Shown here: positions 22,681 to 50,383 of the stretch, piece by piece | How the letters are laid out: each line of letters begins with the position of its first letter | How positions within the stretch are numbered: the stretch's first letter is position 1 | DNA from: an uncultured Candidatus Peribacteria bacterium | Lineage (GTDB): Bacteria > Patescibacteriota > Gracilibacteria > Peribacterales > Peribacteraceae | DNA: 64,000 nt | Assembly (NCBI GenBank): GCA_964640945.1 | Contig: CAZXIV010000002.1 | Coordinates: 368 to 64,367, forward strand | Direction of reading: 5' to 3' | Translations under genes and position numbers: made by a program | The notes under the pieces: model-generated | The model's database searches: none | What the model saw: the letters and a program-made list of their open reading frames with translations, nothing else | What the model was told of the DNA's origin: nothing

Positions 22681-24984
22681 GTGCCATCGTCCCCCACTCC
22701 GATTACACTCTCGCCCGTGCCTGTCCTCGACACGGATATCCTTCTCGGCCCCCTGAACCCCGAACAGCGCGCAGCCGCCGAGACGACCGAAGGGCCGGTG
22801 CTCATCTTGGCCGGCGCCGGCAGCGGCAAGACCAAAGCCCTGACGCACCGCATCGCCTATTTAATGAGCAAGGGCGTGGAGCCCTACCAAATCCTGGCCG
22901 TCACGTTCACCAATAAGGCCGCCCGCGAGATGAAGGACCGCATCCGCGCCCTCCTCCATTTAACCGGCGAGGACCAGAGCGACCTCATCACGCCGGGCGC
23001 CGGACGCATGCCCACCATGGGCACGTTCCACTCGGTGTGCGTGCGTATCCTCCGCCGCGACATCGAGCACCTCGGCCGCGACCGCAGCTTCGTCATCTAC
23101 GACTCCGACGACCAAGAGCGCCTGATGAAGGAAGTACTCCGCGAGCAAAAGATCGACGAGTCGATGCTCAAACCCCGCGCCGCCCTCTCGGCCGTGAGCC
23201 GCTGGAAGTCGGAAGCCTACCTACCCAAAGACGCCCACACCCAGGCCACGAGCGCCCGCTTGGAGATGATGGCCAACGCGTATGCCTCCTATCAAAAAGC
23301 CATGATGGGCGCGAACGCCATGGATTTCGACGACCTACTCCTGGAGACCGTTCGCCTCTTCCATGAATGCCCCGACGTGCTCGCGCGCTACCAGAACACC
23401 TGGCGCTACGTGCACGTAGACGAGTACCAAGACACGAACCACGTGCAGTACCTGCTCATCATGCTGCTGACGAAGACGCACAAGAACCTGTGCGTCATCG
23501 GCGACCCCGACCAGTCGATCTACGGTTTCCGCGGCGCCGACCTCCGGAACATCCTGGAGTTCGAGAAGGAATACCCCAACGCCAAGCGCATCACGCTCGA
23601 GCAGAACTACCGCTCGACGCAGCTCATCCTGAGCGCGGCTGACGCCGTCATCGCCCAGAACCCCAACCGCCCCAAGAAGACGATGCGCAGCGACCGCAAG
23701 GAAGGCCCGAAGGTGCTTATCCAGGAACTGCGCGACGAGCGCGGCGAAGCCGAAGAAGCCATCCGCGCGGCCAAGCAGCTGGCTAAGGAGGGCGTGCCGC
23801 TCTCGGACCAGGTGATCCTCTACCGCACCAACGCCCAGTCGCGTCTCTTTGAAGAAGCCTGCCTGCGCGAGGGTATGCCCTACCGCCTCTTGGGCGGCAC
23901 CAAGTTTTACGCCCGCCGCGAAGTGAAGGACGTGCTCGCCTACCTGCACGCCATCTTGAATCCCAAGGATGTGCTCTCGCTCCTGCGCATTATCAATGTG
24001 CCCGCCCGCAAGATCGGCCAGACGACGCTCGAGAAGATTCAGGCGCACTGCCAGGCCGCCCAAATTTCTCTCTGGCAAGCCGTGCAAGACCCCGAGAGCA
24101 TCCCCGGCCTGGATGCCGGCGTGAAGCAGCGCTTGGCCGTGTTTGCCGCGCTCATCTTGCGCTTCCGGAGCCTGGCCGACAGTAAGCGCGTGGGCGAACT
24201 CACGGACCAACTGCTCGACGCGCTCAACATGCACCAGTGGCTGATGGAGGATGATGACGGCGAGGAACGCTGGCAGAACGTGCGCGAACTGCTCTCCGTT
24301 ATGCAGAAATATGAGCACTTGGAACCCAAGGCGTCGCTCACAGCCTTTTTAGAAGAAGCCGCCCTCGTCTCGGAGGCGGACAAGCTCGGCGACGAAGACC
24401 GCCCCTCGCTCACGCTGATGACGGTGCACCTCTGCAAGGGCTTGGAGTACGAGCACGTGATGGTGGCCGGCTGCGAGGAGGGCATCTTCCCCCATAGTTC
24501 GAGCCTCTTGGACCGCGCCCAAATTGAGGAAGAACGCCGCCTGATGTACGTCGCCATGACGCGCGCCAAGACACACCTGCGCCTACTCCTAACGCGCAGT
24601 CGCCTACTCTGGGGCCAGCGCCAGACCAACGCCAAGAGCCGCTTTCTTGATGATGTTCCGGCCGAGGTCTGCGAGCGCCGCAGCGACGACGTCCTCTCGG
24701 CTTTTGCTTGGGCCAGCGAGCGCGCGGTCACTCATCCCAGCCGCTCCTCGGGCAAAAAGCTCGATCCCTTCGTGCAGCAGGAAGTGAGCATCGAGTTTAA
24801 CCAGGATCTCGGCCAGGACGACGGCGAGTCGCAAGCGGAAGTGGATATCGGCTCGCGCATCGAACACCAAGTCTTCGGCCAAGGCACGGTCACGCGCCGC
24901 CGCGGCGATGTGATCGACGTGGCCTTCGACGACGGCCGCCAAAAGACCCTTGCCCTCAGCGTCGCCAAAGTGCGGATACTTTGA
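22681..24984 (+). CDS. pcrA: ATP-dependent DNA helicase PcrA/UvrD (SF1)
   Basis: 767 aa. 'AGAGSGKTKALTHRIAYL' (Walker A), 'VHVDEYQDTN', 'GDPDQSIYGFRGA', 'LEQNYRST', 'MTVHLCKGLEYEHV', 'RLMYVAMTRAK' and a C-terminal Tudor-like 'GSRIEHQVFGQGTV'. Confidence 0.9.
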   Translation: MPSSPTPITLSPVPVLDTDILLGPLNPEQRAAAETTEGPVLILAGAGSGKTKALTHRIAYLMSKGVEPYQILAVTFTNKAAREMKDRIRALLHLTGEDQSDLITPGAGRMPTMGTFHSVCVRILRRDIEHLGRDRSFVIYDSDDQERLMKEVLREQKIDESMLKPRAALSAVSRWKSEAYLPKDAHTQATSARLEMMANAYASYQKAMMGANAMDFDDLLLETVRLFHECPDVLARYQNTWRYVHVDEYQDTNHVQYLLIMLLTKTHKNLCVIGDPDQSIYGFRGADLRNILEFEKEYPNAKRITLEQNYRSTQLILSAADAVIAQNPNRPKKTMRSDRKEGPKVLIQELRDERGEAEEAIRAAKQLAKEGVPLSDQVILYRTNAQSRLFEEACLREGMPYRLLGGTKFYARREVKDVLAYLHAILNPKDVLSLLRIINVPARKIGQTTLEKIQAHCQAAQISLWQAVQDPESIPGLDAGVKQRLAVFAALILRFRSLADSKRVGELTDQLLDALNMHQWLMEDDDGEERWQNVRELLSVMQKYEHLEPKASLTAFLEEAALVSEADKLGDEDRPSLTLMTVHLCKGLEYEHVMVAGCEEGIFPHSSSLLDRAQIEEERRLMYVAMTRAKTHLRLLLTRSRLLWGQRQTNAKSRFLDDVPAEVCERRSDDVLSAFAWASERAVTHPSRSSGKKLDPFVQQEVSIEFNQDLGQDDGESQAEVDIGSRIEHQVFGQGTVTRRRGDVIDVAFDDGRQKTLALSVAKVRIL

Positions 24985-32713: not shown

Positions 32714-34150
32714 ATGGTGCCGGCGCACGCGCTGCTGCTGGGCATCCCCGTCGGCGCGGCCCTGGGACTGGCCGGAACGCCGGCCCTGATCGGTGTGTGG
32801 CTGTGCCTCATACTCATGCTCAGCCCCCGACCCGCCTTCCGCTGGCGGGTGATGGTCGTGTTTGGCCTGGCCATCGGACTATTCCGCGCCGGACTAGTAC
32901 CCGCCCCACTCGCCCTCCCGGAGGGACGCTTCACCGTCACTGCCACGGTCCGCGATGTGCGCGAGAGCTGGCTAAAGACACGCTACTTTTTAACGGATGC
33001 CGCTACGACCAACGGGCAAGCACTCGGGGCAGTAGTAGCGACCGTCCGCAGTGCTGAGGCCGACGCCGGACCTGGTGACCAAGTGACGATCGTTGGTTCG
33101 CTCCTGCCCCCTACGCCCTACCTGGCGGCCCAAGGCCTCGTGGCCAGCCTCGAGGATGCGCGCGTCACAGTGGCCGCGCCGGGACCCTTCTCTCTTGGCA
33201 CTGGCTTAGCCCGCCTCCGCCGCGAGACGGAGCAGCGCCTCTCGGTCCTACTGCCCCTGCCCGAAAGCGCCTTGCTTTCGGGACTACTCCTCGGCACCGA
33301 TGAACGCCTCCCTCACACTGATAGCGACAATTTCCGCGCCGCAGGCCTCTCGCACCTCACCGCCGTCTCGGGCTCTAACGTCGCCCTCATTTTAAGTCTG
33401 ATGGGCCGCGCCCTCTGGTGGGTACCCAGACGATGGCAGCTGCTCCCCCTAGCGCTTGGCATCGGCGGCTTCACCCTCCTTGTCGGCGCACCGGCCTCCG
33501 CTGTCCGCGCGGCCCTCACGGGTGTGGTCGGCCTGATTGCCCTCCAAGGCGGCCGCCCCGCGGGGGGCCGGCGAGCGCTGATCCTCGCCCTGGCGGCCAT
33601 GACACTCTGGGAACCACGCCAGCTCATTGCCGACGCCGGTTTTCAACTCTCGTTCTTGGCCACGCTTGGCATTGTAGAATTAGGCCCGCCACTCAAGCGC
33701 CTGTGCGAGCGATGGTTACCCACCTTCCTCGCCGAAGCCACCGCCGTGACGTTGGCCGCCGAGCTGCCCACGCTGCCCTGGTCGGCCTGGATCTTCGGCA
33801 CGTTCTCCACCATCGCGCCATTCACCAACTTGGTCGCCGCTCCGCTCTCCGGCTTGGCAACCATGGGGGGCTTGGCGCTCCTCGGCACCAGTCTCCTCTT
33901 GCCGCCGCTCACGCTGCTGGTGCGGCCGGTGGCCTGGCTCGGGCTCCATGCTCTCATCGCCCTGGCGCACGTCGGCGCCACCCTGGGTGCGCTCTTGCCG
34001 GACCCAGGACCACCCCCGCTGCCGCTGCTCCTCTGCCTAGAAGGCGGACTACTCGCCGCTGCCCTGCTGTGGTCACGCCTTAGCGCCGGTACAGCCACAC
34101 CGTCTGGGGACCACGCCATGTTGGCACGACCTGCTCCGCCACGGGCGTAA
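32714..34150 (+). CDS. comEC: ComEC/Rec2-family membrane protein (short form, no metallo-beta-lactamase domain)
   Basis: 478 aa. 'FRAAGLSHLTAVSGSNVALI' competence-domain signature and many TM helices. Confidence 0.75.
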   Translation: MVPAHALLLGIPVGAALGLAGTPALIGVWLCLILMLSPRPAFRWRVMVVFGLAIGLFRAGLVPAPLALPEGRFTVTATVRDVRESWLKTRYFLTDAATTNGQALGAVVATVRSAEADAGPGDQVTIVGSLLPPTPYLAAQGLVASLEDARVTVAAPGPFSLGTGLARLRRETEQRLSVLLPLPESALLSGLLLGTDERLPHTDSDNFRAAGLSHLTAVSGSNVALILSLMGRALWWVPRRWQLLPLALGIGGFTLLVGAPASAVRAALTGVVGLIALQGGRPAGGRRALILALAAMTLWEPRQLIADAGFQLSFLATLGIVELGPPLKRLCERWLPTFLAEATAVTLAAELPTLPWSAWIFGTFSTIAPFTNLVAAPLSGLATMGGLALLGTSLLLPPLTLLVRPVAWLGLHALIALAHVGATLGALLPDPGPPPLPLLLCLEGGLLAAALLWSRLSAGTATPSGDHAMLARPAPPRA

Positions 34151-38255: not shown

Positions 38256-38330
38256 TGGCAGCCCCACGGGGAATCGAACCCCGATTACAGGAATGAAAAT
38301 CCTGTGTCCTAGCCGTTAGACGATGGGGCC
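38256..38330 (-). tRNA. tRNA-Glu (anticodon UUC), CCA encoded
   Basis: Minus strand GGCCCCATCGTCTAACGGCTAGGACACAGGATTTTCATTCCTGTAATCGGGGTTCGATTCCCCGTGGGGCTGCCA folds as a cloverleaf. It has a 7-bp acceptor stem, the anticodon arm CAGGA-TTTTCAT-TCCTG and the T-arm CGGGG-TTCGATT-CCCCG. Confidence 0.9.
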
Positions 38331-46844: not shown

Positions 46845-46984
46845 AGGGAGAGAGGGGAAAAGAAAAACAATCGGACCCTATCATAGACGGACGAAAGTCT
46901 CACTTCTTTCCCAGGACAGTTGGCGCCCGATAGTGGCGTCGCTGACGATTGACAGTTACCTCAGAAAAGTTTTTGATTGGCACA

Positions 46985-48016
46985 ATGACTAATCGTGAAA
47001 CGTTCGGCGTAGAAGAGGTGGCAGCGATCGCCGAGGTGGCGCTGGATCCGGCGCTGCTCGCCACGAAGATCACACTGCGAACCATCAAGAAGAAGCACCC
47101 CGAGCTGGCGTTCCATCTGGCCGAATGCTTGTGCGCGCTGTGCGGTGCGCGCGATACCAAGCTCAAGCCAGCGACGCCGAACGAGTTCCATTACGTGATG
47201 GGCAATCTGGCGGCGATCGACTTGGGCGTGCCCGGCGATAAGAAGGAGGCAGGTTACGTCGACGGCTGCCTCGCCTCGCTGGCCGATTGCACGGAGGGCG
47301 AACGTTCGTCGAACTGGCAGCGCATGCGCCGGCTCTTGGCCCAAGGGCGGGAGCATGGCGGCAGCCGCGGCCGCGAGGGCTCGGTGGCGACCTTCGACGG
47401 CGAGAAGCGGAAGGAGACCAAGCGGCAGACCAACGACCTCCGCACACTGGTCGATATGCTCGCAATCAACGTGCCGGTCGGCATCGACCTGCTCGGCAAG
47501 CCGCCGTTCGAGCGCATCCAGACCCTCCCCATTGAGCAGCCGATCACGATCAGCTTCGGCGAAGGTAAAGATGAGGAGACAATGCGCATCGCTACCGACC
47601 GCCGCCGCCACAGCTGCGTCACCTGGGCGATGCACGAAGAGGGTTACCGCGAAGTGATGCAAGACAGCATAGACGATGACGATATGGCGTTCGTCGGCGA
47701 GGCCTACCACCTCGACCGCTGGTTCGGGCACTCGTTCCGGAACCACATACCCCTGCCCACGACCATGAACCTCGGCGAGCAGCCGACGGCATCGTGGCTC
47801 TCGATCGTGCGCAGGCGCGGCCGCATCGCCCTGCTGCTGCGCCGCCCGCGCGGCATCGTGACGGTGGAGCAAGGCGACAATATCTGGCGCTACGACCCCA
47901 CCGCGGCCCACGGCGACACGTTCGGCACAACGGCGCATGAATCGTTGAAAGAGCGGCTCAATTATCTAGAGCTGCCCGACGAGAACGATGAGGAGGATAC
48001 CGTCCTCGAGCCCTGA
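46985..48016 (+). CDS. hypothetical protein, no recognisable domain
   Basis: Start at ATG 46985 inside track ORF 46949..48016. High third-position GC and a balanced composition support this strand over the antisense ORF 46961..47938. Confidence 0.5.
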   Translation: MTNRETFGVEEVAAIAEVALDPALLATKITLRTIKKKHPELAFHLAECLCALCGARDTKLKPATPNEFHYVMGNLAAIDLGVPGDKKEAGYVDGCLASLADCTEGERSSNWQRMRRLLAQGREHGGSRGREGSVATFDGEKRKETKRQTNDLRTLVDMLAINVPVGIDLLGKPPFERIQTLPIEQPITISFGEGKDEETMRIATDRRRHSCVTWAMHEEGYREVMQDSIDDDDMAFVGEAYHLDRWFGHSFRNHIPLPTTMNLGEQPTASWLSIVRRRGRIALLLRRPRGIVTVEQGDNIWRYDPTAAHGDTFGTTAHESLKERLNYLELPDENDEEDTVLEP

Positions 48017-50383
48017 TCAGGCGGACCGGAAGGCTTTGAGCTGCACGGTCGTGAGAATCTCTTTGAGTTGTTCGTCGCTGGCGGACTGAGCGCCTTGGAG
48101 CGAACCGAATTTCTTGAGCAGTGCCGCCGCTGTCACCGGCCCGATGCCGGGGATGGTGGGCAAGCGCGAGGCTACCATCTTGGCACTGAGGCGACCCTCA
48201 CGGTGGCGGTTGGCGAAGCGGTGCGCTTCGTCGCGTAAACGCCGGAGGAGGATGTGGGCCGGGCTATCGGAGGCCATCGCCAGCGGCGTGCTGCTGCCGC
48301 GGGTGAATACTTCTTCTTCGCGCTTGGCCAAGCTTAAAAGGGCGATAGGCAGACCAGTGCGTTCCAGTTCGATTTCAACCGCGTGCAGCTGACCGAGGCC
48401 GCCATCAATCAGAATGATGTCGGGCATCTTCGCCAGCGAAGCATCGGCCTTGTGCTCGTCGGCCTGCCAAACCATCGGACAGAGCGGCGGTTCGTCGGGG
48501 TGCGTCTCGCGGTACGCGCGCTCAGCCTCCACCACGGCTTCTGGGGGTTTAAGAATGTGGCGGAAGCCAACCTGCATATAGAAGCCCTGTAGGGCCTCTT
48601 CGCAGTGAAGATAGACTTTTTTCGCTTTCGTCTTGGAGAGTGCAAAGCGAACGAGCGCCAGGCCAAGCTTGGCACCACGCTCCGACGGAATCACAAGCAG
48701 GGAACGCAGCCCCGTAAAGCCGCCCGGGAAGACACCCACCCGCACGATGCCCACCACCGCCTCGCCGCGGATGGCCACAACCCCTTCTTTGTACAAGAGC
48801 GGATCGGTAGTGGTTGAACCGTCGGCTGCACGCAGCGCCGTGATCGCTGCCTGGTCCGCCTTTACGGCTTTACGAAGCACAATCCCCCGTTCGGCCCAGC
48901 GCTGCGCCTCACCCTTCATGCCGCCGGTCAGGTGCCTAAAGCGCCGACGCAGCACTTCCTGCAAGGAGCGATAATCGTCGATATCTCCGGACTTAAGCGT
49001 CTGGACCGTAAATGAGCGGTAGTGCTCGCGCTTCGGTTTGCCGTTCTCGAACACCACCATGCTGCCTACGGTCTCGGTGCCGCCGAGGTGGCTGATGTCG
49101 TAACACTCGATGCGGCTGGGCGGCCCAGGTAAAGAAAGAAATGATTGCAGCTCGGCGGCGGCACTCTGGGTGTTGCGGATTTCGGCCTCCCACTTCGCCT
49201 CCTGCTGCGTCACCTTCTGCCGGGCATTGCTCATGGCCACGTCGAGCAGCTGGGTTTTCTGGCCACGCGCGGGCACGCGCACCTCCACCTTCCGGCCGGC
49301 GCGCTCGCCGAGCCAAGCCGAGAGCGTGGCTGCACTCTCGATCTCTTCGGGCAGGAGGATGAGCGAGGGGAACGTGGGCACGTCGCTGTAGTAGAGGGGC
49401 AGAAACTGCTCGAGCGCTTCCTGCACCGTCTCGGGTTGGCCGCTCAAGGCCGTGGCGATCTCGCCCATAACCTTGCCGTTACGCTTCTGCAGCACCACCA
49501 CTTGGCAGCGGCCGGCCATGAGGGCGATGCCGACGGCGTCAGTATCTTCGCCGGAGGTATCGGACACTACCTGCTCCTCGGCTAGCGATGTGATGCGCTG
49601 GAGCTGGTCACGGTACTGGGCGGCCGTCTCGAACTGCTTGGCCACCGCGGCCTCCTGCATCTTCACTTTAAGGAGCTGCGTGACGGGACCGAGCTCCCCT
49701 CTCCAAAAACGGATGACGGGCTCGATGCACTGCTCTTTATACTGCGCGGGCGTGAGCGAACCGATGCAGGGCGCTCTACATTGCTGCATGTGATAATCCA
49801 GGCAGGGCACGGGGCGGTCGCGGTGCATGCACACCACCTCGAGCGGGATGGTCGTACCGGCACCCTCGGCCGGCTCGATCGTCATCTTGCAGTTGCGGAA
49901 GCGGTAGAGCTTGCGAAGCACGGCCAGTACCTCGTACACCTGCCAGGCCGCAGGCTTGGGGCCGAAGTAGAGCGCACCATCCTCTTCGATCTGTCGGACA
50001 ACATCGATGCGGGGGTAGGTGTGATTGCTGATCCGCACGTAGACGTAGTTCTTGCCGTCCTTCATTAGGACGTTGTATTTGGGGCGATGCTCCTTGATGA
50101 GGTTCGTCTCCAGCACCAGCGCCTCAAGCTCGGTACGCACGACAGTCAGATCAAAGTCGCGTACTTGGCGCACGAGCGACTCTTTCCAGGGGCCAAGCTT
50201 GGCGCCGGGCGCAACGTAACTGCGCAGACGCTGGCGCAGGTCTTTGGCTTTGCCGACGTAAAGGATCTCACCCTCGCTGCCGAGCCAACGGTAGACGCCC
50301 GGGCCGGTGGGGGCCTGGCCGATGCGCTGGCGCAGCTTCAGTAAGACCGGCGAAGAGGGTTCCGGGCGAGGCACGGCCCCCAT
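48017..50383 (-). CDS. uvrC: excinuclease ABC subunit C with an inserted GNAT-like domain
   Basis: 788 aa. GIY-YIG ('GVYRWLGSEGEILYVGKAKDLRQRLRSY'), UVR ('AAQYRDQLQRI'), 'IECYDISHLGG', 'PDIILIDGGLGQL' and (HhH)2 ('IPGIGPVTAAALLKKFGS'). About 165 extra aa lie between 'VLRRRF' and 'PDIILIDGG'. Confidence 0.9.
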   Translation of the reverse strand: MGAVPRPEPSSPVLLKLRQRIGQAPTGPGVYRWLGSEGEILYVGKAKDLRQRLRSYVAPGAKLGPWKESLVRQVRDFDLTVVRTELEALVLETNLIKEHRPKYNVLMKDGKNYVYVRISNHTYPRIDVVRQIEEDGALYFGPKPAAWQVYEVLAVLRKLYRFRNCKMTIEPAEGAGTTIPLEVVCMHRDRPVPCLDYHMQQCRAPCIGSLTPAQYKEQCIEPVIRFWRGELGPVTQLLKVKMQEAAVAKQFETAAQYRDQLQRITSLAEEQVVSDTSGEDTDAVGIALMAGRCQVVVLQKRNGKVMGEIATALSGQPETVQEALEQFLPLYYSDVPTFPSLILLPEEIESAATLSAWLGERAGRKVEVRVPARGQKTQLLDVAMSNARQKVTQQEAKWEAEIRNTQSAAAELQSFLSLPGPPSRIECYDISHLGGTETVGSMVVFENGKPKREHYRSFTVQTLKSGDIDDYRSLQEVLRRRFRHLTGGMKGEAQRWAERGIVLRKAVKADQAAITALRAADGSTTTDPLLYKEGVVAIRGEAVVGIVRVGVFPGGFTGLRSLLVIPSERGAKLGLALVRFALSKTKAKKVYLHCEEALQGFYMQVGFRHILKPPEAVVEAERAYRETHPDEPPLCPMVWQADEHKADASLAKMPDIILIDGGLGQLHAVEIELERTGLPIALLSLAKREEEVFTRGSSTPLAMASDSPAHILLRRLRDEAHRFANRHREGRLSAKMVASRLPTIPGIGPVTAAALLKKFGSLQGAQSASDEQLKEILTTVQLKAFRSA

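What the first reader, a model, noticed from the sequence alone, without database searches (positions are those of the whole stretch)
48428..48925. UvrC contains an inserted GNAT-like acetyltransferase domain between the endonuclease core and the 'PDxxLIDGG' segment
In canonical UvrC, only about 10-30 residues separate '...DDYxxMxEVLxRR' from 'PDLxLIDGGxGQL'. Here about 165 residues (aa ~487-652) intervene.

The insert reads like a GNAT fold. It includes '...GVVAIRGEAVVGIVRVGVFPGGFTGLRSLLVIPSERGAKLGLALVRFALSKTKAKKVYLHCEEALQGFYMQVGFRHI...', which shows a beta-strand, an R-G-x-x-x-G acetyl-CoA-loop-like element and a terminal 'FY..GF' helix.

The flanking UvrC modules (GIY-YIG, UVR, RNase H-like endonuclease, HhH2) are all intact and in frame. 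This is therefore a domain insertion and not a gene fusion artefact. An acyltransferase module inside a nucleotide-excision-repair nuclease is, to my knowledge, not a described architecture. It could link repair to acetyl-CoA status or to acetylation of a partner or of DNA-bound proteins, or it may be a catalytically dead structural insert.
Basis: partly seen in the sequence, partly recalled or inferred. Interest (0 to 1): 0.65.

Follow-up and report, generated by a model that had tools for sequence, protein, structure and literature searches.

The report
UvrC repair nuclease with built-in acetyltransferase
The DNA-repair nuclease UvrC of this uncultured Peregrinibacteria bacterium carries a complete acetyltransferase-type (GNAT) domain spliced into its second cutting domain; this is a real, ancient, clade-wide feature that no paper I could find describes, and its job is still unknown.

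Summary
ORF 48017-50383 (minus strand, 788 aa) is a full UvrC. About 165 residues (aa 484-651, window 48431-48934) sit where T. maritima UvrC has 2 residues and 52 other bacteria have a short loop. The insert ends 9 residues before catalytic Asp660 of the 5'-incision domain.

The insert is a GNAT domain:
- It passes two Pfam gathering cut-offs.
- It folds confidently alone (pLDDT 88, pTM 0.84).
- It matches 409 solved structures; the 50 best listed are GNAT-type acetyltransferases, led by M. tuberculosis ArgA/Rv2747.

It is not an assembly artefact. All 229 related protein clusters that could be parsed carry an insert. Every organism label is Peregrinibacteria, Peribacteria, 'Gracilibacteria' or Patescibacteria, at a conserved locus. 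One GNAT-less and one internally deleted ortholog nest inside the clade, so those are secondary losses.

Two conservation layers appear in two independent protein sets:
- An acyl-CoA/catalytic set (R548, S561, R569, G570, G574, Y601/Y602) is intact in about 78% of members, including this one. These residues decay together.
- A basic/structural set (K505, K508, K586, K589, Y591, G606, F607) is kept even in decayed members.

Most likely this is a working acetyl-CoA-using lobe fixed to the nuclease. The substrate is unknown. It is a new variant of known kinds.

The parts
48017..50383 (-). uvrC gene, 788 aa plus stop codon
   Evidence: ORF listing. TIGR00194 scores 476.7 bits against a cut-off of 285. 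The locus order hppA / uvrC / ytxH-like / pyrG is conserved in relatives.
50072..50299 (-). GIY-YIG 3'-incision nuclease domain (aa 29-104)
   Evidence: PF01541 scores 36.7 bits. PDB entries 1yd6 and 1ycz match. Y31, Y42, K45, R52, Y56, E92 and N104 are invariant in 118 homologs.
49766..49891 (-). Cys-rich segment (C165, C194, C202, C206)
   Evidence: All four Cys are at least 90% conserved. From my own knowledge, not tested here: this is the position of the four-Cys [4Fe-4S] site reported for E. coli UvrC.
49592..49663 (-). UVR (UvrB-binding) motif (aa 241-264)
   Evidence: PF02151 scores 22.4 bits against a cut-off of 21.5.
49205..49546 (-). First RNase H-like domain (aa 280-393)
   Evidence: PF22920 scores 91.6 bits.
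48935..49144 (-). N-terminal part of the 5'-incision RNase H-like endonuclease domain (aa 414-483), with catalytic D429
   Evidence: PF08459 profile positions 2-72. It aligns to 2nrt residues 7-80. D429 corresponds to T. maritima D367 by offset. D429 is invariant.
48431..48934 (-). Inserted GNAT domain (aa 484-651; the core insert judged against outgroups is about aa 486-644)
   Evidence: PF13508 and PF00583 score above their cut-offs. The AF2 model shows GNAT topology with pLDDT about 89-97. Folded alone it gives pLDDT 88.4 and pTM 0.84. Foldseek finds 409 PDB hits at E<=1e-3; the 50 listed are GNAT-type acetyltransferases. Outgroups have 0-45 residues at this loop.
48662..48679 (-). GNAT motif A / pyrophosphate-binding loop, R569-G-A-K-L-G574
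   Evidence: Translation checked. Conservation in set 1: R 86%, G570 74%, L573 91%, G574 83%. ElaA has the same pattern.
48578..48583 (-). F601-Y602 on helix alpha4; Y602 is the candidate catalytic tyrosine
   Evidence: Among members with an intact motif A, Y602 is present in 98% (set 1) and 100% (set 2). Among members that lost motif A it drops to 60% and 24%.
48611..48628 (-). K586-A-K-K589-V-Y591, the always-conserved basic element at the alpha3-beta5 turn
   Evidence: K586, K/R589 and Y591 are 89-100% conserved whether or not the CoA motif survives, in both sets.
48860..48871 (-). K505-A-V-K508 at the beta1-alpha1 turn, second part of the always-conserved basic layer
   Evidence: K/R505 is 99% and K508 94% conserved in set 1. 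Both are retained in members that lost the motif.
48194..48430 (-). C-terminal part of the 5'-incision endonuclease domain (aa 652-730), with catalytic D660 and H721
   Evidence: It aligns to 2nrt from residue 83 onward. D660 corresponds to T. maritima D429 and H721 to H488. D660 is invariant and H721 is at least 90% conserved.
48020..48163 (-). (HhH)2 DNA-binding domain (aa 741-788)
   Evidence: HHH_5 scores 24.6 bits, below its cut-off of 27. The region aligns to the 2nrt HhH region up to residue 781. The AF2 model shows helices at 749-787.

Best explanation
SHOWN:
- This is the orthologous UvrC of a Peregrinibacteria (CPR) bacterium.
- A complete GNAT domain of about 160 residues, of the ElaA / short-NAGS-like branch, is spliced into the helix-to-strand loop of the RNase H-like 5'-incision domain. 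It ends 9 residues before catalytic Asp660.
- The domain was acquired once, at the base of the Peregrinibacteria / 'Gracilibacteria' clade. It has been inherited vertically, and a few lineages have eroded or deleted it.

INFERRED:
- In this protein the acyl-CoA site is intact (R548, S561, R569, G570, L573, G574, Y602).
- The lobe therefore most likely binds acetyl-CoA and works as an acetyltransferase. It is held rigidly beside the 5'-incision active site and acts locally at the incision complex. The most plausible targets are lysines of UvrB, UvrC itself or a DNA-bound protein, which would couple incision or complex turnover to acetyl-CoA.
- A second layer (K505, K508, R579, K586, K589, Y591, G606, F607) is kept even where the CoA site has decayed. 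It probably forms the contact with the nuclease domain or with DNA or a partner, which would explain why the fold is almost never deleted.

CONFIDENCE:
- Architecture and evolutionary history: about 0.95.
- Functional acyl-CoA site in this protein: about 0.7.
- Acetyl transfer onto a component of the repair complex: about 0.25-0.4.
For: Architecture:
- Pfam and NCBIfam domain calls.
- The boundaries of the insert against 2nrt.
- Full-length AF2 model: pLDDT 88.3, with junction blocks at 85 or higher, which argues against a floppy tether.
- The insert folds on its own: pLDDT 88.4, pTM 0.84.
- Structural neighbours are GNATs. The best are Rv2747/ArgA (5yo2, 5yge; TM 0.62-0.64), N. gonorrhoeae NAGS, EctA, AANAT and ElaA.
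- Profile against PDB sequences: ElaA 1e-9 and ArgA 1e-8.

Distribution and history:
- The 120 best hits to this protein and the 120 best hits to a distant relative are 670-890 aa apart from a few shorter entries. All 229 that could be parsed have at least 130 residues at the loop.
- Every organism label belongs to Peregrinibacteria, Peribacteria, Gracilibacteria or Patescibacteria. The list includes the complete Peribacter riflensis genome.
- Outgroups have 28-88 residues of total spacing.
- The GNAT-less L019 and the internally deleted L021 nest inside the clade and lie at the same locus.

A functional site:
- Motif A is intact in 98 of 118 (set 1) and 86 of 119 (set 2).
- In set 1 it was lost at least 13 independent times.
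- Where it is lost, Y601, Y602, S561 and R548 are lost too (Fisher p from 1e-5 to 1e-10 in set 1; Y602 p = 4e-19 in set 2). K508, K586, K589 and Y591 stay at about 80-100%.
- This co-decay is what is expected if the CoA/catalytic residues are held by selection on ligand use rather than on the fold alone.
- The window protein has the intact set.
- Non-synonymous change in the insert is well below synonymous change (pN 0.28, pS 0.73 against L001). This indicates purifying selection, although the insert evolves about 3 times faster than the core.
Against: - There is no biochemical evidence of any kind.
- 22% of orthologs have lost the CoA signature yet keep the domain. One ortholog lives without it. 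So catalysis is dispensable and cannot be the only reason the domain is retained.
- The central Gly of the canonical Q/R-x-x-G-x-G/A motif is Lys in this protein.
- The closest solved and stand-alone relatives are small-molecule (amino-acid) N-acetyltransferases, not protein acetyltransferases.
- I could not obtain model coordinates or PAE. The placement of the CoA cleft and of the basic patch relative to the nuclease active site rests on generic GNAT topology only.
- The Fisher tests are not corrected for phylogeny.
Confidence: 0.4

Rival explanations
1. Non-catalytic structural lobe (pseudoenzyme). The GNAT fold is kept only as an extra surface on the 5'-incision domain. It might add DNA-backbone contacts, a UvrB or dimer interface, or stabilise the catalytic strand. 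Acetyl-CoA would play no role in this protein.
For: - The most invariant residues of the insert are not the CoA loop. They are K505, K508, K586, K589, Y591, G606 and F607, which are kept even in members without motif A.
- 53 of 237 members lost the CoA signature but kept the domain at full length.
- L021 deleted the beta2-beta4/motif A core but kept the C-terminal half.
- Inserts are net basic. In set 2 they are more basic when the HhH2 DNA-binding domain is missing (+11.4 against +7.6).
- The junctions are modelled as rigid.
Against: - The CoA/catalytic residues are among the best conserved positions in the 78% of members that keep them. They decay as a block, which implies selection for ligand use in those lineages, and the window protein is one of them.
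- L019 shows that UvrC can do without the domain entirely.
Confidence: 0.2
2. Acetyl-CoA sensor. The lobe binds acetyl-CoA or CoA without transferring the acetyl group. Through its attachment 9 residues from catalytic Asp660, it allosterically tunes 5' incision to the metabolic state, in the way PanZ uses a GNAT fold as a CoA-dependent regulator.
For: - The CoA-binding signature is intact.
- The insertion is rigid and lies next to the strand that carries D660.
- PanZ appears among the profile hits (E = 0.004).
- That GNAT folds can act as ligand-dependent regulators is established knowledge from the PanZ-PanD system, not something tested here.
Against: - Y602, the usual general-acid tyrosine, is 98-100% conserved wherever motif A is intact and is lost with it. 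That fits catalysis better than mere binding.
- Nothing shows allosteric coupling.
Confidence: 0.2
3. Moonlighting enzyme. The GNAT acetylates a small molecule (an amino acid, a polyamine or similar) unrelated to repair. It happens to be hosted in a permissive UvrC loop of a small genome.
For: - The best structural and sequence relatives are amino-acid N-acetyltransferases and ElaA.
- The loop tolerates insertions in other phyla too; Dehalococcoidia have 20-50 extra residues there.
Against: - Scores against the NAGS and ArsN2 equivalog models are far below their cut-offs (15.6 against 154; 18.5 against 125).
- A housekeeping metabolic enzyme would not be expected to be lost at least 13 times while its fold is preserved.
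- The rigid, conserved junction and the invariant basic layer point to integration with UvrC.
Confidence: 0.13
4. Assembly chimera or gene-fusion artefact at the insert boundaries.
For: None found.
Against: - An identical protein lies on an independent contig (P0001).
- More than 229 orthologous clusters from NCBI, JGI, ENA and Logan carry the insert, including closed genomes.
- The reading frame is continuous, and GC content is uniform across the boundaries.
Confidence: 0.01

Closest known systems
Canonical UvrC (E. coli; T. maritima structures 1ycz, 2nrt; D. radiodurans 8b0q)
   Same: All canonical modules are present, in the canonical order and with their catalytic residues: GIY-YIG, the Cys-rich segment, UVR, two RNase H-like domains with the D-D-H triad, and (HhH)2.
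   Different: 168 residues forming an independent GNAT domain replace a 2-residue turn between the 'DDY...RR' helix and the strand that carries the second catalytic Asp.
Short N-acetylglutamate synthase ArgA/Rv2747 (5yge, 5yo2) and E. coli ElaA (5z6n), both GNATs
   Same: Best structural matches (TM 0.62-0.64) and best profile matches (ElaA 1e-9, ArgA 1e-8). ElaA has the same R-G-x-K-[LV]-G motif A. The closest stand-alone database relatives are annotated as NAGS-like GNATs.
   Different: About 22% identity. The NAGS and ArsN2 equivalog models are far below their cut-offs. The domain has an extra helix (aa 615-627) and is embedded in a nuclease rather than free-standing.
PanZ (GNAT fold used as an acetyl-CoA-dependent regulator of PanD)
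   Same: It is a precedent for a GNAT fold that acts through CoA binding rather than through acetyl transfer. It gives a weak profile hit (E = 0.004).
   Different: PanZ is a separate protein that acts on a decarboxylase. Nothing here shows regulation.
Eukaryotic NER-associated histone acetyltransferases (GCN5/STAGA, p300 with DDB)
   Same: Conceptual parallel only: an acetyl-CoA-dependent enzyme of the GNAT superfamily recruited to excision-repair sites. This rests on my own knowledge and was not tested.
   Different: Those enzymes are separate proteins that act on chromatin. Here the GNAT is covalently built into the bacterial incision nuclease, and no substrate is known.
Other rearranged UvrC-module proteins (Cho; DEDD exonuclease-GIY-YIG fusions, PRK07883)
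   Same: They show that UvrC modules are recombined in evolution. They appear as partial hits.
   Different: Those are truncations or terminal fusions. This is an internal domain insertion into the RNase H-like fold of a full-length UvrC.

Membership tests
UvrC (excinuclease ABC subunit C, TIGR00194) | Whole-protein score above the curated equivalog cut-off | tested here: met
   476.7 bits against a cut-off of 285.45.
UvrC (excinuclease ABC subunit C, TIGR00194) | GIY-YIG nuclease domain with its catalytic Tyr, Arg, Glu and Asn | tested here: met
   PF01541 scores 36.7 bits. Y31, Y42, K45, R52, Y56, E92 and N104 are invariant in 118 homologs. The domain aligns to 1ycz and 1yd6.
UvrC (excinuclease ABC subunit C, TIGR00194) | RNase H-like 5'-endonuclease domain with the Asp-Asp-His triad | tested here: met
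   PF08459 scores 150 bits, in two stretches. D429, D660 and H721 align to T. maritima D367, D429 and H488 and are conserved.
UvrC (excinuclease ABC subunit C, TIGR00194) | UVR motif and C-terminal (HhH)2 domain | tested here: met
   UVR scores 22.4 bits against a cut-off of 21.5. The HhH Pfam models fall below their cut-offs (24.6 against 27), but the region aligns to the 2nrt HhH2 domain and is helical in the model.
UvrC (excinuclease ABC subunit C, TIGR00194) | Dual incision together with UvrA and UvrB | not testable with these tools
   This needs biochemistry.
GNAT superfamily (PF00583 / PF13508) | Pfam score above the gathering cut-off | tested here: met
   Acetyltransf_7 scores 27.9 against 27. 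Acetyltransf_1 scores 24.6 against 20.7. Both are marginal. Relatives score much higher, with E-values down to 1e-13.
GNAT superfamily (PF00583 / PF13508) | GNAT fold (beta1-alpha1-beta2-4-alpha3-beta5-alpha4-beta6-beta7) | tested here: met
   AF2 secondary-structure order. Foldseek gives 409 PDB matches at E<=1e-3; the 50 listed are GNAT-type acetyltransferases.
GNAT superfamily (PF00583 / PF13508) | Motif A, Q/R-x-x-G-x-G/A (CoA pyrophosphate loop) | tested here: inconclusive
   The window protein has R-G-A-K-L-G. The first and last positions fit, but the central Gly is Lys. E. coli ElaA has the same variant. 39 of the 86 intact set-2 members have the canonical Gly.
GNAT superfamily (PF00583 / PF13508) | Acyl-CoA binding and acyl transfer | not testable with these tools
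   There is only indirect support: the active-site residues decay together.
Amino-acid N-acetyltransferase / NAGS equivalogs (NF005840, NF005921) | Score above the equivalog cut-off | tested here: not met
   NF005840 scores 15.6 bits against a cut-off of 154. The protein resembles this family but is not a member.
ArsN2 (NF040501) | Score above the equivalog cut-off | tested here: not met
   18.5 bits against a cut-off of 125.

The most novel reading that the evidence does not exclude
The embedded GNAT is an active acyltransferase whose substrate lies in the incision complex itself. Candidate substrates are a lysine of UvrB, UvrC or a nucleoid protein, or, more radically, the damaged strand or the excised oligonucleotide. 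This lineage would then perform an acetyl-CoA-dependent chemical step as part of bacterial nucleotide excision repair, which would be the first such case in prokaryotes. The always-conserved basic patch would help position DNA, partly substituting for the HhH2 domain that many relatives have lost.
Probability: 0.25. Interest if true: 0.8.

Novelty: new variant of a known kind. Interest (0 to 1): 0.56.

Why it matters
- UvrC is one of the most conserved and best studied bacterial repair enzymes. Internal domain insertions into its catalytic RNase H-like domain are not part of the textbook picture.
- A clade-wide acetyl-CoA-type module sits nine residues from a catalytic aspartate. This suggests either regulation of excision repair by central metabolism or a repair-coupled acetylation step in bacteria. 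Both are known only from eukaryotic chromatin-linked NER.
- The insert is a clean molecular synapomorphy for the Peregrinibacteria / 'Gracilibacteria' radiation.
- Its repeated decay offers a natural series of enzyme-to-pseudoenzyme transitions.
- The question is testable with recombinant protein, even though the organisms are uncultured.

Tried and rejected
- **Insert-only profile scan of GTDB genomes.** I used the full-length protein instead. The outgroup sample is therefore whatever shares exact peptides with this UvrC, not a systematic survey of CPR phyla.
- **Single-sequence search with the insert.** The search of 1.84 billion representatives found only 89 hits. It under-detects divergent inserts, so distribution was judged from loop length and a second homolog search.
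- **dN/dS between the window and L001.** dS is saturated in the insert (pS 0.73-0.82). Only pN below pS and relative dN are usable.
- **A strict regex for motif A.** It undercounted set 2, where canonical R-x-x-G-x-G/A forms occur. It was replaced by alignment-column scoring.
- **Literature.** Five searches found nothing on UvrC-GNAT, nor on acetylation of bacterial UvrC. The search covers open-access text only.
- **Model geometry.** I could not extract coordinates or PAE from the models. No contact between the GNAT and the nuclease domain, and no distance to the active site, was measured.
- **Ideas rejected.** The insert is not an intein or a mobile element, because it has a GNAT fold, the frame is continuous and the composition is unchanged. 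It is not a paralogous UvrC, because the locus order is conserved. It is not recent horizontal transfer, because it is clade-wide and GC content matches the flanks.
Full report
**What is in the sequence**

The minus-strand ORF 48017-50383 encodes a 788-aa protein. Pfam finds every UvrC module in the canonical order:
- GIY-YIG, aa 29-104.
- UVR, aa 241-264.
- UvrC_RNaseH, aa 280-393.
- The 5'-endonuclease domain PF08459, split into two stretches. The first is aa 414-486, matching profile positions 2-72 of 159.
- HhH motifs near aa 741-776.

Between the two halves of PF08459, Pfam finds GNAT models above their gathering cut-offs. Acetyltransf_7 scores 27.9 against 27, and Acetyltransf_1 scores 24.6 against 20.7 (aa 535-608). 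NCBIfam's UvrC equivalog TIGR00194 scores 476.7 bits against a cut-off of 285.

Against the crystal-structure sequence of T. maritima UvrC (2nrt), query residue 483 pairs with chain residue 80 and query 652 with chain residue 83. So 168 residues replace a two-residue turn. From the same alignment, the nuclease triad is D429 / D660 / H721, equivalent to T. maritima D367 / D429 / H488. The insert ends nine residues before D660. In window coordinates the insert is 48431-48934, and I checked all part coordinates by translation. GC content is uniform across the boundaries.

**The insert is a GNAT fold**

- AlphaFold2 on a 118-sequence alignment gave mean pLDDT 88.3 and pTM 0.67. The insert and both junctions were modelled at about 85-97.
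- The order of secondary-structure elements in the insert is: helix 488-498, beta1 501-505, alpha1 508-520, beta2-beta4 534-564, alpha3 573-584, beta5 589-594, alpha4 596-603, a short beta6, an extra helix 615-627, and beta7 635-640. That is the GNAT topology.
- The insert folded alone gave pLDDT 88.4 and pTM 0.84.
- Foldseek returned 409 PDB matches at E<=1e-3. The 50 listed are GNAT-type acetyltransferases, led by M. tuberculosis ArgA/Rv2747 (5yo2, 5yge; TM 0.62-0.64). N. gonorrhoeae NAGS, EctA, serotonin N-acetyltransferase and E. coli ElaA follow.
- A profile of the insert hits ElaA (1e-9) and ArgA (1e-8) among PDB sequences. ElaA shows the same R-G-x-K-[LV]-G version of motif A as this protein's R569-G-A-K-L-G574.
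- The closest stand-alone database proteins are 150-160-aa GNATs that their sources call 'NAGS-like GNAT' or 'amino-acid N-acetyltransferase'.
- The insert is not a member of the NAGS or ArsN2 equivalog families, because its scores are far below their cut-offs.

**Distribution and origin**

- The 120 best database relatives of this protein are 734-886 aa. Most carry precomputed GNAT Pfam hits. Every organism label is Peregrinibacteria or Peribacteria, including the complete Peribacter riflensis genome. One hit is an identical protein from an independent assembly.
- In an alignment of 118 of them, the insert columns are almost free of gaps.
- A scan of GTDB species representatives found the long form in Peribacteria/Peregrinibacteria loci and in two 'Gracilibacteria'-labelled loci. 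It also found it in one 38%-GC, 6.7-kb contig labelled Nitrospirota, which groups with those loci and is probably misbinned.
- In the same scan, Chloroflexota, Actinomycetota, Bacillota and other phyla have the short loop.
- In 52 outgroup loci the DDY-to-IDGG spacing has a median of 36 and a range of 28-88. It is about 190 here.
- A second homolog search, started from the distant L015 protein, returned another 120 clusters labelled Gracilibacteria, Peregrinibacteria or Patescibacteria. Nearly all are 670-790 aa.
- All 229 proteins from the two sets that could be parsed have at least 130 residues at the loop.
- The locus order hppA / uvrC / ytxH-like gene / pyrG is conserved, so these are orthologs.

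Two informative exceptions exist:
- L019 has no GNAT. It has only about 15 residues between the helix and the native 'D-x-S-L-x3-PDL' element.
- L021 has deleted the beta2-beta4/motif A core but kept the C-terminal half.

On a neighbour-joining tree of the UvrC core, both nest well inside the GNAT-bearing clade. So they are secondary losses of a domain that was gained once.

The 'D-x-S-[FL]' element also occurs in outgroups and is therefore native UvrC. Dehalococcoidia carry 20-50 extra residues at the same loop, which shows that the site tolerates insertions.

**Is the GNAT alive?**

The insert evolves faster than the rest of the protein. Mean column entropy is 2.2 in the insert against 1.1-1.8 in the other modules. 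Against L001, identity is 62% in the insert and 84-94% elsewhere, and dN is 0.345 in the insert against 0.05-0.12 elsewhere. Even so, pN (0.28) stays far below pS (0.73).

Two layers of conservation emerge.
- **Layer 1, the ligand/catalytic site.** It comprises R548, S561, R569, G570, L573, G574, Y601 and Y602. Motif A is intact in 98 of 118 proteins of set 1. By parsimony it was lost at least 13 independent times.
- Where motif A is lost, the other residues of the layer go with it. Y601 falls from 85% to 10%, S561 from 87% to 20%, Y602 from 98% to 60% and R548 from 91% to 45% (Fisher p from 1e-5 to 1e-10).
- **Layer 2, the always-conserved set.** It comprises G500, K508, R579, L582, K586, K589, Y591, G606, F607 and P614. 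These stay at 85-100% in both groups.

The pattern replicates in the independent set 2. There 86 of 119 proteins are intact, and all of them have R569 and Y602. The other 33 are decayed, and only 24% of them keep Y602. K505, K508, K586, K/R589 and Y591 remain at about 80-100% in both groups.

The tests are not corrected for phylogeny, but the losses are many and scattered. I read this as selection for acyl-CoA use in most lineages. The window protein carries the intact set. A separate, non-catalytic reason then keeps the fold in place when the site dies.

**Mechanism (inferred)**

In a generic GNAT, K505/K508 (the beta1-alpha1 turn) and K586/K589/Y591 (the alpha3-beta5 turn) lie at the pole opposite the CoA cleft. 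Beta7 leaves the domain towards the nuclease strand at that same pole. I therefore expect the invariant basic layer to face the nuclease domain or its DNA path, and the CoA/acceptor cleft to face outward. This is topology-based inference. I had no coordinates or PAE.

The most likely reading is a working acetyl-CoA-using lobe, rigidly mounted beside the 5'-incision site, that acts locally on the incision complex. I give about 0.7 that the site binds acyl-CoA in this protein. I give about 0.25-0.4 that it transfers acetyl to a component of the repair complex.

The rivals are:
- a CoA sensor that does not transfer acetyl (PanZ-like);
- a purely structural lobe;
- a moonlighting small-molecule acetyltransferase.

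An assembly artefact is excluded.

**Known or new**

Five full-text searches found no description of a UvrC-GNAT architecture or of acetylation-linked bacterial UvrC. The Peribacteria genome paper does not mention it. The architecture is visible in automated annotation, and some orthologs are even named 'GNAT family N-acetyltransferase'.

It is therefore a new variant of known kinds, UvrC plus GNAT. It is universal in one CPR clade and has not been characterised functionally.

**Context**

The neighbours are ordinary: CTP synthase, H+-pyrophosphatase, a ytxH-like protein and an ABC transporter. The window also encodes a UvrD/PcrA-type helicase, which is consistent with a working excision-repair pathway.

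Noticed in passing
L015, L017, L019, L020, L021 and about half of proteins P0221-P0339: Many relatives of this UvrC end shortly after the 'RDEAHRFA' helix at genuine stop codons (TAA, TAG or TGA), so they lack the (HhH)2 domain. In set 2, the proteins without HhH2 keep the GNAT CoA motif more often (52/59 against 34/60, p = 2e-4). Their inserts are also more basic (+11.4 against +7.6). These figures are not corrected for phylogeny.
   Followed up: partly
window 46949-48016 (+): A 355-aa ORF with no Pfam hit lies between uvrC and the ytxH-like gene. It is convergent with uvrC and ends one base before the uvrC stop codon. It is present only here and in the closest relative L001 (71% identity); in other relatives the ytxH-like gene follows uvrC more closely and the ORF has no match. 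Local GC content is a little higher (0.64-0.67).
   Followed up: partly
L017 (JAUVQE010000053.1, labelled Nitrospirota): This 6.7-kb contig with 38% GC carries a UvrC-GNAT that groups with the 'Gracilibacteria'/Peribacteria loci L015, L016 and L018. It is probably a CPR contig misbinned into a Nitrospirota MAG.
   Followed up: partly
L026, L027, L032, L038, L039, L067 (Dehalococcoidia): These UvrCs carry 20-50 extra residues in the same helix-to-strand loop where the GNAT sits. The loop seems to be a hot spot for insertions. I did not examine what these shorter inserts are.
   Followed up: no
L019 and L021: These are natural deletion variants of the GNAT at the orthologous locus. L019 lacks it entirely. 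L021 lacks beta2-beta4/motif A but keeps 'KNGKY...YYADMGFRH'. They are ready-made templates for deletion constructs.
   Followed up: yes
window 3425-4852 (-): A 475-aa protein has RelA_SpoT synthetase and TGS domains, but no HD hydrolase domain was detected at E<=1e-5.
   Followed up: no
window 22681-24984 (+) and 32714-34150 (+): A UvrD/PcrA-type helicase and a ComEC competence channel are encoded in the same window. The single Rfam match at gathering score is a tRNA at 38259-38330 (-).
   Followed up: no
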